Positions 8,248 through 35,426 of a stretch of 64,000 nucleotides of DNA are shown here, one piece after another. The stretch is from positions 1 to 64,000 of the IMG/VR virus record IMGVR_UViG_2832410175_000003; one strand, given 5' to 3'. The notes beneath the pieces were generated by a model. It did not search any database. It was given only the letters and a program-made list of their open reading frames with translations, and was not told where the DNA came from. The stretch's first letter is position 1; each line of letters opens with the position of its first letter. Position numbers and translations under genes: made by a program. Origin of the DNA: a virus (taxonomy: Duplodnaviria > Caudoviricetes).

Positions 8248-8645
8248 CGCCGCACCTCCAATCCAATCAGCTCTGCAACGTATTCCAGCTCGCCAATCTC
8301 TGCATCATAGAACGCCTTGTTCCAAATCCAGAAATCCGCGTATTCCTTGCGCTTGAATTTTGCGCAGAGCTTGTCTGCCCAAACCTTGTCCCAGCGCTTC
8401 TGGTAATCGCCGTCGCGTTTCGCAAGCCTGCGTTTGATGTCGCCAATCAGCTTGCCGCGCAGTAAACCCTTGCCGTCATCGTCTCGTGCAAAGTGGCAGA
8501 GCGCGTTCTCACTGGCTGCAAAGCAAAGCGGCTTGCCCTCGTAGAAAATAATGCCCTCTGATTCCCAACAGGGAAGAGTAGCTTTCAAGTTCACAGGACC
8601 ACAGAGGGCAGCGTCCTTGAACCGTTTGTATACGATATATCGCAT
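8244..8645 (-). CDS. Conserved phage protein of fibre/DGR-type loci
   Basis: 133 aa, RWDKVWAD...FWIWNKAFYDA; ATGA overlap with the next gene. Confidence 0.65.
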   Translation of the reverse strand: MRYIVYKRFKDAALCGPVNLKATLPCWESEGIIFYEGKPLCFAASENALCHFARDDDGKGLLRGKLIGDIKRRLAKRDGDYQKRWDKVWADKLCAKFKRKEYADFWIWNKAFYDAEIGELEYVAELIGLEVRR

Positions 8646-8697
8646 GAAAAACCTCTTTTACGCCCGTTTTCGCGGGCGTTGTTTGTTTAATTAAAGA

Positions 8698-10401
8698 TTA
8701 GACCTTGAACATTGGGGCAACGTCATTACTAAAGCTAGCTTTTTTCGTCGTCTCGTGACCGGTGTCATTCACACAGCAAAAATGTCTGCCGCTGGCGGAA
8801 GAAGGCGAACGACACAACCAGTTACCCTCCAAAGATTGATCTGAGTATTTATACTTGGTTGTAACATATTGGTCATTAACATCAGCAGCAAAAGGATCGA
8901 TATTACCATCTTTGAAATACTTATACTGTGCCTGATGATTTTGTTCTGCTGAATTTGCATAGGTTCGAGCACCGTGAATCTCAAATTCCGCCAGAAGTGG
9001 AAGGAAATCAATGGTCGTCGTAACAAAAGACGCAGTATCAGAACCGCCGCCCGTATTATCCGTATAAATACACATCGGACGCATCACAGCGCGGAGATCG
9101 GCCGGCAAGCAGCTCATCAGGGAATAAGCTACCGGAGACGTTGCTGTTGTCGCAGTTGCATCACCGTTCTGAACGTTTGTAGAACCTAAAACATTGTAGC
9201 GCATTTCGGAATTCTTCCAGCCACCAGAGTTGGTATCAGGAAAAGGATTCATAACAAAAGTGAGATCGTCCAGACAAATATCCTTGCCACCGGTAAGCGC
9301 CGTCTTAAACGTGCCGAATGTAATGCCATCCTTCGTGCCGCCAACCGTACTGCTGTCGTGGTCAAAGTCCAAAATGTAAACATACAGCTCAGTATTCAGG
9401 CTCAGTTTCCCTGCCGTGCCGCTCAGCTTAATCTTCTTACAGTCGCCGACCGCCCACAGATTCTTAGCATTACCTGCTAAAGACTGCTTGCTGATATAAT
9501 CCCAGCTTGCCTGATCAAGTGTCGGCGGCGTCACATCATTCACACTCTGCACCACAACCCAGACCTCAACATCCGCCGTCGGCACGGTATCCGCCGTAAA
9601 CGTAACCGAGTTATCGCCCTGCGCCGTCATCTGAATGCCTGCTTCGTTGTAAGCGCTCATGCTCGTTCCCGCAGGCATCGGCATGATAAGCTGCTTGCTC
9701 TCGTCTTCAAGTACGCCGGAGACCGTTGCGGATTGGGTTTTCGCAGTGGAATCCCAGCCGGAAGCGGTGAGCGTTACTTTGCAGGCGTTCGGAGTGACAG
9801 CAGAAGTAGCCGCGTCTACATAGCTTTTAGGTGTCGGCATGGTATCGGTGGTAGGGGTGACTACGTTGTTGATATGTACACCATCGGGCTGCAAGAGCAT
9901 TGCGGTTTCGCTTCCATTACGACTGACGATAGCTTCCACTCCGTCCACGCCAAGCAGAACGTGTGCATTACTGTATACCTTGCCATCTTTTTTATAATGA
10001 ATCGCCGCAATCAAAGGATTACTTTGGTATACGGCAAAACCTTTGACGTATCGGTCTCCATTATGGTTCTCACCCTGCGTCTTGTAAAAATAACCTTCGT
10101 TATCTCCGCCCGTGATCGCGCCCGTCATCTTGCCGCCTGCAAGCGGCAGATACTTCGCAAACTGACTTGCGTGTGCATCCGTTGCGGAATTGTGGGAACT
10201 AACCGCGTCTGAAACATCGGTTTTAACATCATCCGCATTCGGAATCTGTGTGTTCGTGCCATCAGCGTTACCGGTATACAGCCGCTTTTCATCGGTTACA
10301 TACGCAACCTTGCCCTCTTCCAGCGATGGCAAACCGGGTTTAGGGCCAGTATAATCGACGGTGCTTTCGCCCGTCGGAAATGCCGAAATAATAGGCATCA
10401 T
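8698..10401 (-). CDS. Tail fibre / receptor-binding protein with C-terminal DUF6273 (C-type-lectin-like) domain
   Basis: YLPLAGGKMTG fibre motif; NSGGWKNSEMR; WLCRSP...FCCVN..G...VAPMFKV C-terminus. Confidence 0.7.
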   Translation of the reverse strand: MMPIISAFPTGESTVDYTGPKPGLPSLEEGKVAYVTDEKRLYTGNADGTNTQIPNADDVKTDVSDAVSSHNSATDAHASQFAKYLPLAGGKMTGAITGGDNEGYFYKTQGENHNGDRYVKGFAVYQSNPLIAAIHYKKDGKVYSNAHVLLGVDGVEAIVSRNGSETAMLLQPDGVHINNVVTPTTDTMPTPKSYVDAATSAVTPNACKVTLTASGWDSTAKTQSATVSGVLEDESKQLIMPMPAGTSMSAYNEAGIQMTAQGDNSVTFTADTVPTADVEVWVVVQSVNDVTPPTLDQASWDYISKQSLAGNAKNLWAVGDCKKIKLSGTAGKLSLNTELYVYILDFDHDSSTVGGTKDGITFGTFKTALTGGKDICLDDLTFVMNPFPDTNSGGWKNSEMRYNVLGSTNVQNGDATATTATSPVAYSLMSCLPADLRAVMRPMCIYTDNTGGGSDTASFVTTTIDFLPLLAEFEIHGARTYANSAEQNHQAQYKYFKDGNIDPFAADVNDQYVTTKYKYSDQSLEGNWLCRSPSSASGRHFCCVNDTGHETTKKASFSNDVAPMFKV

Positions 10402-24200: not shown

Positions 24201-27200
24201 ATTCTCCTTTCCCTCCGATAATGCTTTTCCCGTTCATTGACAGAAGCAGGGAAGCTACAGGGGTGATAAGTCCCGGAAGGACGCCAAGTTTATCAATCAG
24301 AGTGTTGAAGAACCCGAGAATGCCAGAGCCGGCGTCGATTGTGCCTTTCACAAAGCCTGAGTCAAGAACACTCGTGCTTGCGGACTGGAATTGCGCTTGG
24401 AACTGTGCAAGTTTACCTTGAATAGAATCAAGATATTTTGCGTTCTCGGCATCAGCTGAGCCAGTTGCGTTTTTAGTTGACTCGATGACGTCCTCAACGG
24501 TCGACCAGTTCTGGATGAGCGCTGAAGTTGTATTCGCCATTCTCTTCGTTTGTGTTTACAAGGTTTGCAAAGCCTTATGTTGTATCTACAACCTCATGTT
24601 TTCACATGAGACCCGACTATTTCTTCACCCTTGCAACCAAGGGGCATACCTTTTCCATTTAAGGGATTTTCACCCACGCCTTTGCTTGCGCCGTACTCCT
24701 GTTGCTCATAAAGAGCCGAGGGATAGTCTGTGAACCTTCTCCGTGTCATGAGACCGATAGGAGCTTGGCTGCATGATCACCCATTGTTACTGCACTTAGG
24801 CTTTTGACCGTATGCAATCCGCACGTTGTTTCTGCTTTCGCACCGTCATAAACTGCTTTCGCGCTTATTGTGGTGTGCGGCTTTAGGGGGTACCTGCAAT
24901 TAAATATGTTGTTATTGCACATTACTGTACAACCGGGCAAGGTTGATCTACCCGAAATGGTTTTGAGCAAAGCGGCCTGATCCACGTCGCTGAGGCTGTC
25001 ATAAACTTCTGCAATTTCACGCATAATTTGCGTAGTGCTCTTAAATTGCGTTCCAGCCTCATCAGACATAATGTCCACTTTGTCGTGAGTTAAAGTTTCG
25101 ATGGTTTCGCGAAGCTCACTTACAGAGTTTGCCATACCATCCGTTTCGATTCCGGCCTCTTCAGCATCGGCTTTAGCGGCACGGAGGTACATACTAAGGG
25201 TTTTAGCCCATGTCAATCTGTTACTTTCGGCGGGTCGCCTACTGACCACTTTTGTGGCGGCAAGGCCGTTAAACCTTGCTCTCGCGTTTCGTTGTTAGAT
25301 TATAGCGCGAGTTCGGACTGTATCTTCACCCCAGAGCGGGGGAATGGCGAAGCCCCGCTTGTTACCAAGCGGGGCTTTACAGTCTCTACGGATTTTGAAT
25401 TAGCTTAAAGGAATATAGATAGGTTCATTAAGCTCACAAGATTCATGGTTATCATCAAAATATTTTGTTATGGCAAACGCCACAATTTTGTCTCGTTTGT
25501 TCCACATATCAAAAGTATCGTCTATATAAACAGCTGTACTAAACTTACGACTTGGCTCAACTGTAGAACCACACGGAGCACCTAATGTAGTCAATGTGCG
25601 TCCTTTTTTATCAAGTAAATCAACTAAAAACCCAGCATTCTCTAAGGTATCCTGAGAAATATTTTCTCCGGTAAACCAATATTCAATAGAACCATCGTAT
25701 GGAGATTTCTGCGAATCAAATTCTATTTTTAGGGGAAAATAACAGTCAGCATTAGCGTCGCCGCTGCCACTTCCGGGTTTAACTCTACTGGAACAACCAC
25801 ATAACACTCCCAACAACATAACGATGAGAGCAATAATACTAATATTCCTTTTCATTTTCATCCACTCCTTTACCTCAATTATACATTAAGATAGAAGAGA
25901 ATGGAAGCTAAAATTCAATCTTTCCTCGGTCTGAACCGTCTCCGGCCTTTAACCGATATAGCCATTTGCTTGCTCGCATATTACTATGCGGCTGGGCGCA
26001 TGGATTCACCCACTGTATCAGGATCTTGTCGTTTCTGTTACTTGTTAGCGCTGATATACCACTAATCTGACCGCAAAGCGGCGGCAAGGTCTTTCGGCCT
26101 TACTCTCACGTTTCCTTTCATTATTGCGTGAGTCCGGACTGTATATTACACCCTTCCCAGAGGAGTGGGGTGGATTGGTTCAGCTCTGGTGTTACCATCA
26201 GAACCCCGCAGTCTCTACGGATATTGCTACCCACGGTCTCTGCTGTCGCCAGCCTTTGACCGTTTTACCAATCTGCTTGCGAACGTATTACTACGCCGCG
26301 TGGCAAAGATCTACCACTTCGTTTGCTGCTGTTACGAGGCCCAAACTCTCATCGAGAGAGTTGCCGCCTGCGTACAGAGCTGCTGCTGATCTTTTGAGGG
26401 CTTCGCCAAGCCCTTCTGCGTACCTTTAGCGCGGGTCGTTACTCCGCACCGACATAAAGTCCTCCGTCTTTCAACGGAGCCGAGATCATATCTTCACCCC
26501 ATAGGGTGCCTACCACTTTCAGAGCACTTGCTCCTACTTTGATCGTTGAACCTTCCTCTATTCGAGGCTTGGCTGCTGATTATCCATTGTCACGGCGTTT
26601 AGGATTTAACCTTGCGCCATCTCTCATTTTTTTCTGCTTTCGCCGCATTCACGTCTGCGCCTGTTCGGCACTGCGTTGTAGCATGAGAGCTTTAGGACGT
26701 CCCAGCAATTCAATAGGTGATTTTACGAACACATTTCTGTGAACGAAGTCCAATGATTAAACTTATCGCGTAGTTGTTTCCGCTGTTTGTTACTTTTTCG
26801 CCTTAAAAACGAAAAGAACAGGTCATTTCTGCCTGTTTCTGCAATTTTATTATTCGATTATATTTGCAGACCCGACTATATCTTCACCTCCAGAAAAGGA
26901 GGGGATGGCATGACCTCACACGTTACCGTATGAAATCGGTTAGTCTGTACGGATTCTTGTGGTCAAGCACAAGTCTTTCCTCGGTATTGCCCATCTCTGG
27001 GTGTTCACCGATATAGCCATCTTTTACGCTGCACATCGCTGTGCAGGGAGGCCGGTCAAAACCTCATTGAAACGGTCTACAACACTTCCAACATCATCAG
27101 CAGCAAGATGGAAGCCCTGCAGAGTAGAAACAAGCGACTGTGCCGCGTCCTCAATATTCGTGTACTCCGACACGTTCATATATTTGGTTGCCCAGTCGCC

Positions 27201-35252: not shown

Positions 35253-35328
35253 TGGCACGAGTGCTTCGAGTCGAACGAAGATCATACGGTTTTGGAGACC
35301 GATAGCGTACCAATTAGCCCACACTCGC
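35253..35328 (-). tRNA. tRNA-Trp(CCA)
   Basis: 76 nt cloverleaf; anticodon loop CTCCAAA; T arm CTTCG-TTCGACT-CGAAG; encoded CCA end. Confidence 0.85.
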
Positions 35329-35333
35329 ATGTA

Positions 35334-35426
35334 TGGCAGAGATGGTTGGATTCGAACCAACGAGCGAGAGCGTTACCTCCCTTGGCGGAGTCAAATTCCG
35401 CTGCCTTACCGCTTGGCCACACCTCT
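35334..35426 (-). tRNA. tRNA with UUG (Gln) anticodon and long variable arm
   Basis: 93 nt; D arm GCCAAGCGGTAAGGC; anticodon arm GCGGA-ATTTGAC-TCCGC; T arm GTTGG-TTCGAAT-CCAAC; CCA end. Confidence 0.85.

What the first reader, a model, noticed from the sequence alone, without database searches (positions are those of the whole stretch)
25214..26007. Group I intron carrying a self-promoted lipoprotein gene instead of a homing endonuclease
Seen: intron 4 shares its core with intron 1 (AUGGCUAUAUCGGU...ACCGAGGAAAGA-[stem-loop]-AAUCCGUANAGACU). Intron 1 has a short stem with a 6-nt loop there; intron 4 has ~520 nt closed by a TTGAATT/AATTCAA stem (25912-25918 / 25395-25401). The insert holds a TTCCAT-17-TATAAT promoter, an SD and a 153-aa lipobox protein. 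Known: peripheral-loop ORFs of phage group I introns are normally GIY-YIG/HNH/LAGLIDADG endonucleases, and Ltp-type phage lipoproteins block DNA injection by acting on the incoming tape measure protein. Inference: the ribozyme is a neutral harbour for a lysogen-expressed moron, possibly a superinfection-exclusion factor locked inside the TMP gene itself.
Basis: partly seen in the sequence, partly recalled or inferred. Interest (0 to 1): 0.92.

Follow-up and report, generated by a model that had tools for sequence, protein, structure and literature searches.

The report
Intron carrying a swappable lipoprotein gene
A self-splicing RNA intron inside a gut prophage's tail tape-measure gene carries a complete, highly variable surface-lipoprotein gene with its own promoter and an RNA hairpin switch where the usual DNA-cutting enzyme would sit, so an intron can act as a safe docking site for exchangeable accessory genes.

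Summary
Window 25214-26007 (minus strand) is a genuine group I intron, the fourth of five in a 2,786-aa tape measure gene of an SPbeta-like provirus. A covariance model built only from 21 cargo-free introns of other phages hits its two halves (51.7 and 65.8 bits). Intron-less homologues read straight through the predicted VG|TW junction. Loop L6 holds a 524-nt cassette: closing stem, TATAAT box, SD and a 153-aa lipoprotein with an Ig-like beta-sandwich fold, not a nuclease.

New here:
- The same intron carries at least six cargo alleles (25-34% aa identity between lineages) in ribozymes that are 90-100% identical. None of about 24 further copies is empty.
- dN/dS within alleles is 0.2-0.28.
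- The leader folds into a conserved hairpin that pairs the -35 region with the SD and holds the -10 box at its tip (z -4.7). This is the T4 I-TevI layout, in which only internally started transcripts are translatable.
- One chromosomal copy still carries an intron remnant.

Expression in lysogens and any role in superinfection exclusion remain untested, and the cargo is not Ltp-like in fold. The scan noted a comparable cargo-bearing tape-measure intron in another genome (e1-5676078).

The parts
25214..26007 (-). Group I intron 4 of the tape measure gene (794 nt), in the same subclass as introns 1 and 3
   Evidence: It has U before the 5' splice site, a terminal G, and P1 UGGGU/GCCCA. P10 pairs CCAUG with CAUGG of exon 5. 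The R1 model hits both halves. Intron-less homologues are continuous across the junction.
25919..26007 (-). 5' ribozyme half: P1, P2 (GUAA loop), P3 5' strand, P4, P5 (GAGA loop), P4', P6 5' strand. An in-frame UAG lies 8 codons into the intron.
   Evidence: Changes in P2 and P5 among orthologues are compensatory.
25395..25918 (-). Cargo cassette in L6, closed by the P6a stem TTGAATT/AATTCAA. The stop codon overlaps the 3' arm.
   Evidence: In L022-type copies the whole cassette is replaced and closed by a different 13-bp stem.
25856..25906 (-). Leader hairpin: the 5' arm is the -35 region, the tip holds the -10 box (TATAAT 25883-25878), and the 3' arm holds the SD (GGAG 25868-25865)
   Evidence: dG -18.5 kcal/mol, z -4.69, 0 of 200 shuffles as stable. 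The same layout is found in five cassette types. 4 of 15 consensus pairs have double changes.
25400..25861 (-). Cargo ORF, 153 aa (151 aa from the second ATG at 25855): signal peptide with lipobox Cys23, then an Ig-like beta-sandwich
   Evidence: dN/dS within alleles is 0.20-0.28. Homologues found at E 1.6e-11 to 4e-4 are all lipoproteins.
25214..25394 (-). 3' ribozyme half: P6 3' strand, J6/7, P7 (bulged A plus G-C pair), P7.1 hairpin 25376-25351, P3' GCCAT 25348-25344, P8, P7', P9 to P9.2
26008..26029 (-). Exon 4, a 22-nt micro-exon (..QDPDTVG) between introns 3 and 4
24950..25213 (-). Exon 5 (TWAKTLSMYLR...TISG, 88 codons)
24547..27060 (-). The intron cluster: I1 27060-26783, I2 26759-26419, I3 26312-26030, I4 26007-25214, I5 24949-24547
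   Evidence: Rfam RF00028 scores 70.3 bits (I2), 60.4 bits (I5) and 31.4 bits (I1). R1 scores 120 bits (I1) and 65.6 bits (I3). Joining the exons gives one open 2,786-aa frame.

Best explanation
Intron 4 is a working group I ribozyme of the phage IA-like subclass with a P7.1 hairpin. Its L6 loop, the slot that holds the homing endonuclease in T4 td, has been taken over by an autonomous gene cassette. The cassette consists of a closing stem (P6a), a promoter, a SD and a gene for a small membrane-anchored lipoprotein with an Ig-like (FxLYD/DUF4352-like) domain.

Shown:
- The ribozyme core, splice junctions and cassette boundaries.
- The cassette is exchanged as a unit, and the ORF is also exchanged within a shared leader, between otherwise 90-100% identical ribozymes. 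The ribozyme arms therefore flank the cassette like homology arms.
- The ORF is under purifying selection within each allele.

Inferred mechanism:
- On the long late transcript of the tape measure gene, the leader hairpin pairs the SD with the -35 region. Ribosomes stay off the intron, P6a closes the cassette, and the ribozyme folds and splices.
- Transcripts that start at the internal TATAAT promoter begin inside the 3' arm and lack the 5' arm. Their SD is free, so the lipoprotein is made, exported, lipidated at Cys23 and displayed on the outer face of the membrane.

Most likely role (inference, about 35-40%): a surface factor in phage-phage or phage-host conflict, such as superinfection exclusion. 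Its extreme allelic diversity would reflect an arms race.
For: Ribozyme:
- The R1 model from cargo-free introns hits both halves.
- RNAalifold on 21 family members recovers P4, P5, P6/P6a and P7, with 10 of 22 pairs covarying.
- Among I4 orthologues every stem change is compensatory (P2, P5, P9.1, P9.2) and the core is invariant.

Junction:
- The joined exons give a 2,786-aa open frame.
- MT837120.1 and phage Sundance read QDxxxVG-TxLK without interruption.
- L012 lacks introns 1-3 but has intron 4 at the same site.

Cassette exchange:
- Window versus L022: ribozyme 100%, exon 5 98%, leader 58%, ORF 27% aa identity.
- Window versus L012: ribozyme 92-93%, leader 95%, ORF 33% aa identity.
- Six alleles were found, and none of about 24 further copies is empty.

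Real gene:
- dN/dS is 0.20-0.28 within alleles, and allele A variants differ only by synonymous changes.
- The lipobox Cys is present in almost all alleles; allele D is less canonical.

Not a nuclease: the fold is an Ig-like sandwich, with best VIA-align Z of 9.7, 8.8 for IrmA and 7.7 for YjhA.

Gating hairpin:
- z is -4.5 to -5.1 for the A and B leaders.
- The same layout is present in types C, D and E.
- There are compensatory changes.

Promoter: TATAAT is retained in two free-standing copies, L014 and L015, which must be transcribed on their own.
Against:
- The -35 match is poor (2 of 6), and the consensus scan does not call the promoter.
- The type C hairpin is not significantly more stable than shuffles (z -1.46).
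- The -10 box could be conserved partly because it forms the tip of the hairpin.
- The cargo gave no Pfam match, only signal-peptide-level PHROGs matches (E >= 0.069), and no PADLOC match.
- Its fold is a generic sandwich that says nothing specific about function.
- Nothing links the cargo to the tape measure protein. Near-identical tape measure exons carry different alleles.
- Without a terminator, internal transcripts would read into exons 5-6. The P7.1 hairpin is not followed by a U tract.
Confidence: 0.6

Rival explanations
1. The cargo is a lysogenic-conversion factor that serves the host cell, for example in adhesion, glycan binding or evasion of host immunity in the gut. It is not an anti-phage device, and the intron is only its harbour.
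For: The fold resembles the Ig-like domains of glycoside hydrolases, the IrmA receptor mimic and biofilm scaffolds. Free-standing homologues lie in ordinary chromosomal contexts, one of them in a carbohydrate-utilisation locus. The cargo itself has no hit in the defence library.
Against: The chromosomal copy in the sugar locus (L015) carries an intron remnant, so it came from the phage and does not show a native host role. The extreme allelic replacement in near-identical phages fits conflict better than housekeeping.
Confidence: 0.22
2. The lipoprotein acts during lytic growth, like T5 Llp. It would be made early by host RNA polymerase to block the receptor or entry site, protecting the infected cell from superinfection and the progeny from inactivation on debris. 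It would not be a lysogen-expressed moron.
For: The promoter is of host sigma-A type and its timing is unknown. The hairpin would silence translation only on the late tape measure transcript. Late genes of SPbeta-like phages use a phage polymerase (my own knowledge of YonO), which leaves the host polymerase free for such a gene.
Against: No timing data exist. This reading differs from the best explanation only in when the gene is on.
Confidence: 0.12
3. The ORF is a passenger with no current function. The 'promoter' and hairpin are accidental or purely structural parts of an extended P6 arm.
For: The -35 is weak. One copy (L071) is frameshifted. There are no expression data.
Against: dN/dS is 0.2-0.28 and allele A variants show only synonymous changes. 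All but one of about 50 copies are intact. The lipobox, SD and start codon are kept across six deeply diverged alleles. No empty copies of this intron were found.
Confidence: 0.05
4. The cargo helps the intron itself, as a maturase or mobility factor of a new kind.
For: It occupies the slot where homing endonucleases and maturases sit.
Against: A signal peptide with a lipobox sends it out of the cytoplasm. The fold is an all-beta sandwich with no nuclease or RNA-binding features. The intron core is complete, and cargo-free relatives exist at the same site.
Confidence: 0.01

Closest known systems
T4 td intron with I-TevI (also nrdB/I-TevIII and nrdD/I-TevII)
   Same: It is a phage group I intron with an ORF in a peripheral loop. 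The ORF has its own internal promoter. Its SD is sequestered by a hairpin that forms only on read-through transcripts (PMC2988022).
   Different: The cargo is an exported lipoprotein, not a GIY-YIG or HNH endonuclease. The promoter is a host-type TATAAT box, not a T4 late promoter. The cargo is hypervariable and is exchanged as a cassette. The host gene is a structural gene of a temperate phage.
TMP-IVS1/2/3 group I introns in tape measure genes of Bacillus cereus-group prophages (Tourasse and Kolsto 2008, PMC2504315)
   Same: These are group I introns of IA subclasses, inserted at several conserved sites of prophage tape measure genes. Most lack an ORF and a few carry GIY-YIG or HNH genes.
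   Different: No non-nuclease cargo is described there. Here five introns lie within 2.5 kb, and one carries a lipoprotein cassette.
Ltp of Streptococcus thermophilus phage TP-J34 (PMC3952083)
   Same: It is a prophage-encoded, surface-exposed lipoprotein, and it is the known precedent for a lipoprotein that blocks DNA injection.
   Different: Ltp lies in the lysogeny module and, from my own knowledge, is built of helical repeat domains. The cargo here is all-beta, lies inside a late structural gene, and shares no detectable sequence similarity with Ltp.
FxLYD-domain / DUF4352 lipoproteins (NF038353, PF11611), including mycobacterial Mpr
   Same: They are small membrane-anchored proteins with an Ig-like sandwich. 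The homologue P0020 scores 60 bits on FxLYD_dom, and P0001 finds P0020 at E 7.7e-7. B. subtilis YjhA matches at Z 7.7. Mpr is linked to phage resistance (PMC9262609, PMC12596739).
   Different: The cargo itself does not reach either model's threshold. The nuclease and NTPase activities reported for Mpr cannot be inferred here.
Other group I introns with non-endonuclease cargo: IStrons of Clostridioides difficile and the rps3 gene in the fungal mitochondrial rnl intron (my own knowledge)
   Same: They show that a group I intron can house a gene other than a homing endonuclease.
   Different: IStron cargo is a transposase that moves the element, and rps3 is a fixed housekeeping gene. Neither is a self-promoted, exchangeable accessory gene.

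Membership tests
Group I intron | P1 with a U-G wobble pair at the 5' splice site and an internal guide sequence | tested here: met
   Exon UGGGU pairs with intron GCCCA, and the intron follows a U.
Group I intron | Terminal G at the 3' splice site, and a P10 pairing with the 3' exon | tested here: met
   The intron ends ..GAUUG at 25214. CCAUG in L1 pairs with CAUGG of exon 5. In L020 the pairing is kept through a wobble change.
Group I intron | Conserved core P3-P4-P5-P6 and P7-P3'-P8, with a bulged A and a G-C pair in P7 | tested here: met
   R1 hits both halves. The family consensus has P4, P5, P6 and P7 with covariation. P3 AUGGC/GCCAU and P7 G(A)GACUG/CAGUCC can be read directly from the sequence. 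Rfam RF00028 itself does not reach E <= 1 on intron 4.
Group I intron | Removal of the intron restores a conserved open reading frame | tested here: met
   Joining the exons gives a 2,786-aa open frame. Intron-less homologues are continuous across the junction.
Group I intron | Self-splicing activity | not testable with these tools
Intron-encoded homing endonuclease (GIY-YIG, HNH, LAGLIDADG, PD-(D/E)XK) | A nuclease domain detectable by profile or fold | tested here: inconclusive
   No Pfam, PHROGs or NCBIfam nuclease family matched. The fold is an Ig-like sandwich. A signal peptide with a lipobox is present. I rejected the nuclease reading on these positive features, not on the missing profile matches.
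Ltp-type superinfection exclusion lipoprotein | Lipoprotein signal sequence | tested here: met
   LCGC lipobox with Cys23. A lipobox Cys is present in all alleles, though allele D is less canonical.
Ltp-type superinfection exclusion lipoprotein | Sequence or fold similarity to Ltp, and a position in the lysogeny module | tested here: not met
   The model is all-beta. There is no phage exclusion family among the profile hits. The gene lies inside the tape measure gene.
Ltp-type superinfection exclusion lipoprotein | Blocks DNA injection of the superinfecting phage | not testable with these tools
   This needs a plating or injection assay.
FxLYD domain (NF038353) / DUF4352 (PF11611) | A score above the curated cut-off of the family model | tested here: inconclusive
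   The cargo P0001 gives no hit. The homologue P0020 scores 60.2 bits against a cut-off of 23, and P0001 finds P0020 at E 7.7e-7. PF11611 matches only at E 0.003, in 2 of 7 members.
T4-type intron-ORF regulation (internal promoter inside an RBS-sequestering hairpin) | A hairpin that pairs the SD with sequence upstream of the internal promoter's start point | tested here: met
   dG -18.5 kcal/mol, z -4.7, the same layout in five cassette types, and 4 covarying pairs.
T4-type intron-ORF regulation (internal promoter inside an RBS-sequestering hairpin) | A mapped internal transcription start and differential translation | not testable with these tools
   No RNA data could be obtained.

The most novel reading that the evidence does not exclude
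Group I introns in phage structural genes serve as cassette platforms. The conserved ribozyme arms around L6 act as recombination handles through which related phages trade self-promoted, hairpin-gated surface-lipoprotein genes. These lipoproteins are superinfection-exclusion or entry-blocking factors locked in an arms race. The intron then persists because of its cargo's benefit and not through a homing endonuclease.
Probability: 0.3. Interest if true: 0.88.

Novelty: new variant of a known kind. Interest (0 to 1): 0.8.

Why it matters
Peripheral-loop ORFs of bacterial and phage group I introns are treated as homing endonucleases or their remnants. Here the slot holds a functional, selected and rapidly exchanged accessory gene with T4-like translational gating. 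I found no description of this in three of my literature searches.

It gives a concrete answer to how endonuclease-free introns can be retained: the cargo pays the rent. It shows a new way for temperate phages to hide morons inside essential late genes without disrupting them.

It also supplies a natural allelic series (six or more alleles in one fixed context) for finding out what this widespread lipoprotein family does. The prophage is common in human gut assemblies (listed in 465 blocks of the collection) and is present in cultured isolates, so the predictions can be tested directly.

Tried and rejected
- Host identity: two genome-contig scans, one with the intron pattern and one with the exon 1 protein, found nothing. 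The host is inferred only as a gut member of the Bacillota, from SPbeta-like gene content (YomN; the nearest cultured tape measure protein is in Brevibacillus phage Sundance).
- Cargo annotation: Pfam gave no hit. PHROGs gave only signal-peptide-level matches (E >= 0.069). The NCBIfam hit is noise.
- The PADLOC 'LeoB' hits (E 2e-5, 3 members) were not broken down by member. Allele B has exactly three members, all with an acidic linker, so I guessed a compositional match and set the hits aside.
- The Foldseek pdb, BFVD and atlas searches and the atlas feature search give only generic Ig-like neighbours.
- The search for related loci with the family alignment failed because the alignment has no conserved stretch.
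- Rfam RF00028 does not detect introns 3 and 4, and scores intron 1 below threshold. I therefore built my own model.
- The consensus promoter scan does not call the cassette promoter.
- A 212-aa ORF in a family member's intron (L027) has no Pfam match, so I make no claim that it is an HNH gene.
- I did not run complex prediction, because I do not claim binding to the tape measure protein.
- I considered and rejected an assembly artefact: identical architecture is seen in more than 40 independent contigs, including NCBI isolate genomes.
Full report
**Setting**

The window is the first 64 kb of a 175-kb IMG/VR provirus that CheckV rates 93% complete. Its gene content is SPbeta-like: integrase, YomN, ClpP, PhoH and a giant tape measure protein (TMP). 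The nearest cultured TMP is in Brevibacillus phage Sundance.

The TMP gene runs on the minus strand from 28736 to 18277 and is split by five group I introns:

| Intron | Coordinates | Length (nt) |
|---|---|---|
| I1 | 27060-26783 | 278 |
| I2 | 26759-26419 | 341 |
| I3 | 26312-26030 | 283 |
| I4 | 26007-25214 | 794 |
| I5 | 24949-24547 | 403 |

- Rfam calls I2 (70.3 bits) and I5 (60.4 bits) above threshold. It scores I1 at 31.4 bits and misses I3 and I4.
- Every intron follows a U and ends in G.
- Joining the six exons gives one 2,786-aa frame with no internal stop.
- The joined sequence (..VVDRFNEV-GNNYAISS-EGLGEAL..ANEVV-QDPDTVG-TWAKTLSMYLR..TISG-KRMANTT..) matches uninterrupted TMPs. These are MT837120.1 (..AVIQDADTVGTTLKSLSMYLR..) and Sundance (..TIQDPKIVGTALKTVSMRLR..).
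- A related metagenomic phage (L012) lacks introns 1-3 but has intron 4 at the same VG|T site.

**Is intron 4 a group I intron?**

Its sequence shows the expected elements directly:
- P1 (UGGGU/GCCCA) and P10 (CCAUG/CAUGG).
- P2 with a GUAA loop.
- P3 (AUGGC/GCCAU) and P4.
- P5 with a GAGA loop.
- P6, and P7 with a bulged A followed by a G-C pair.
- A P7.1 hairpin, P8, and P9 to P9.2.
- An in-frame UAG eight codons into the intron.

For an independent test I scanned IMG/VR for the P4'-P6-P7 core with a short L6. This found 33 contigs from diverse phages. I aligned 21 non-redundant cargo-free introns. RNAalifold recovered P4, P5, P6/P6a and P7, with 10 of 22 pairs covarying.

The covariance model R1 built from these contains no sequence from this phage lineage. 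Its hits in the window are:

| Target | Coordinates | Score | E-value |
|---|---|---|---|
| I1 | | 120 bits | |
| I3 | | 65.6 bits | |
| I4, 5' half | 25852-25976 | 51.7 bits | 1.3e-9 |
| I4, 3' half | 25265-25433 | 65.8 bits | 8.7e-13 |

The same split hit appears in L012, L020, L022 and L023.

Among I4 orthologues the core is invariant. All stem substitutions are compensatory or move to a wobble pair: P2 CGCAUA/UAUGCG to UGCGUA/UAUGCA or CACACA/UGUGUG, P5 G-C to A-U, P9.2 A-U to G-C, and P9.1 U-G to U-A.

Several of the cargo-free family members sit at the same TMP site (..SVG|) in other phages: L034, L058 and L059. Splicing itself was not observed.

**The cassette**

L6 holds 524 nt closed by TTGAATT/AATTCAA, and the stop codon overlaps the 3' arm. 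The ORF (25861-25400) encodes 153 aa with a signal peptide and the lipobox LCGC.
- There is no Pfam, PHROGs or defence-library family for the cargo.
- An exhaustive phmmer search finds six relatives at E 1.6e-11 to 4e-4, and all five that I fetched are lipoproteins.
- One chromosomal two-domain relative is a clear FxLYD-domain protein at 60 bits.
- AlphaFold2 on a 15-row alignment gives mean pLDDT 80.6 and an eight-strand Ig-like sandwich.
- The best structural neighbours are generic: GH2 Ig domains at Z 9.7, IrmA at 8.8, ApaG at 8.1, and B. subtilis YjhA at 7.7.
- Nothing resembles a nuclease.

**The cargo is variable, exchanged and selected**

The exact window allele occurs in 465 blocks of the assembly collection, always in this architecture. 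The same intron elsewhere carries other alleles:

| Allele | Length (aa) | Found in |
|---|---|---|
| A | 153 | window |
| B | 194-197 | L012, L020 |
| C | 172 | L022, L031 |
| D | 174 | L060 |
| E | 172 | L062 |
| F | 179 | L072, L076 |

- Identities are 25-34% between lineages and 49-58% within the C/D/E group.
- Window versus L022: ribozyme 100%, exon 5 98%, leader 58%, ORF 27% aa identity. Here the whole cassette is replaced and closed by a different, 13-bp P6a stem.
- Window versus L012: ribozyme 92-93%, leader 95%, ORF 33% aa identity. Here the ORF is replaced within a shared leader.
- None of about 24 further copies found through a P7.1-specific pattern is empty, and one is frameshifted.
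- Within alleles dN/dS is 0.20-0.28 (B: 34 synonymous against 39 non-synonymous differences). Allele A variants differ only by synonymous changes.

**Expression design**

TATAAT (25883-25878) is perfect and is kept in types A, B, C and E, with TATATT in D. The -35 match is weak, and the consensus scan does not call the site.

The leader folds into a hairpin (25856-25906, -18.5 kcal/mol, z -4.69, 0 of 200 shuffles as stable).
- Its 5' arm is the -35 region.
- Its tip holds the -10 box.
- Its 3' arm holds the SD.

The same layout appears in all five intron-borne leader types despite different sequences. One C-G to U-A double change separates A from B, and the consensus structure has 4 of 15 covarying pairs. 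The type C hairpin alone is not significant (z -1.46).

A transcript started 6-8 nt after the -10 box would lack the 5' arm and so leave the SD free. [quoted passage not shown] The need for a pyrimidine-rich anti-SD may explain the poor -35 match.

**Copies outside introns**

- L015, in a sugar-utilisation locus, has the A/B-type leader and an F-like ORF (71% identity). Immediately 3' of the cassette lies a decayed piece of the intron's P7 and P7.1. The whole insert is flanked by a roughly 55-bp direct repeat. This points to transfer from intron to chromosome.
- L014, beside a 5S rRNA gene, has a C-type leader with TATAAT but only a weak hairpin (-3.5 kcal/mol).

Both copies support an autonomous promoter.

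**Contrast within the lineage**

In close relatives (L023, L025) a further TMP intron (RF00028, 93.8 bits) is followed by a 346-aa GIY-YIG ORF. Conventional intron-endonuclease pairs therefore coexist with the lipoprotein-bearing intron.

**Function**

What is shown is an exported, selected, hypervariable lipoprotein. The role is inferred. Known prophage lipoproteins include Ltp (PMC3952083) and T5 Llp (my own knowledge), both entry blockers, and DUF4352-bearing Mpr is tied to phage resistance. I rate a conflict or exclusion role at 35-40%, a host-benefit surface factor at about 20%, and lytic-phase action at about 10%. Ltp membership fails on fold and on genomic position.

**Prior knowledge**

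TMP group I introns are known (PMC2504315). I found no paper describing a lipoprotein or other moron in a phage group I intron. The scan's own notes list a comparable case in another genome (e1-5676078), which I did not check.

Noticed in passing
window 24547-27060 (-): Five group I introns of two subclasses lie within 2.5 kb of the tape measure gene. They are separated by micro-exons of 23 and 22 nt, and all sit in the most conserved block (PhageMin_Tail region). Relatives carry different subsets: L012 lacks I1-I3, and L022 lacks I5.
   Followed up: partly
L015:4850-5590: A chromosomal copy of the cassette (P0019, 71% identical to allele F) sits in a carbohydrate-utilisation locus. It keeps the A/B-type leader and a decayed remnant of the intron's P7 and P7.1, and is flanked by a roughly 55-bp direct repeat that includes the stop codon of the upstream gene. 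It is either an escaped cassette or an assembly join.
   Followed up: partly
L014:600-1260: A free-standing homologue (P0018) forms an AT-rich island in GC-rich DNA, about 480 nt downstream of a 5S rRNA gene. It has a C-type leader and tail, including an 8-bp version of the closing stem, but no flanking intron core.
   Followed up: partly
L012:1720-2140: The related phage has another group I-like intron at a different tape measure site (after ..DVDQA, 8 codons upstream of the window's intron 5 site). Rfam did not call it at E <= 1.
   Followed up: no
L023:10980-12414: In close relatives a further tape measure intron (RF00028, 93.8 bits) is followed by a 346-aa GIY-YIG/NUMOD ORF. This is a conventional endonuclease-associated intron in the same gene.
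   Followed up: partly
L071:~8500-9150: One metagenomic copy of allele C has a 619-nt insert and a truncated 132-aa ORF. It is the only broken cargo copy seen.
   Followed up: no
L027:6069-6707: A member of the same intron family carries a 212-aa ORF that runs into the P4'-P6 core. It has no Pfam match, so this may be another unclassified intron cargo.
   Followed up: partly
window 35256-35426 (-): Two adjacent tRNA genes called by Rfam (53.2 and 50.4 bits) lie in the phage late region.
   Followed up: no
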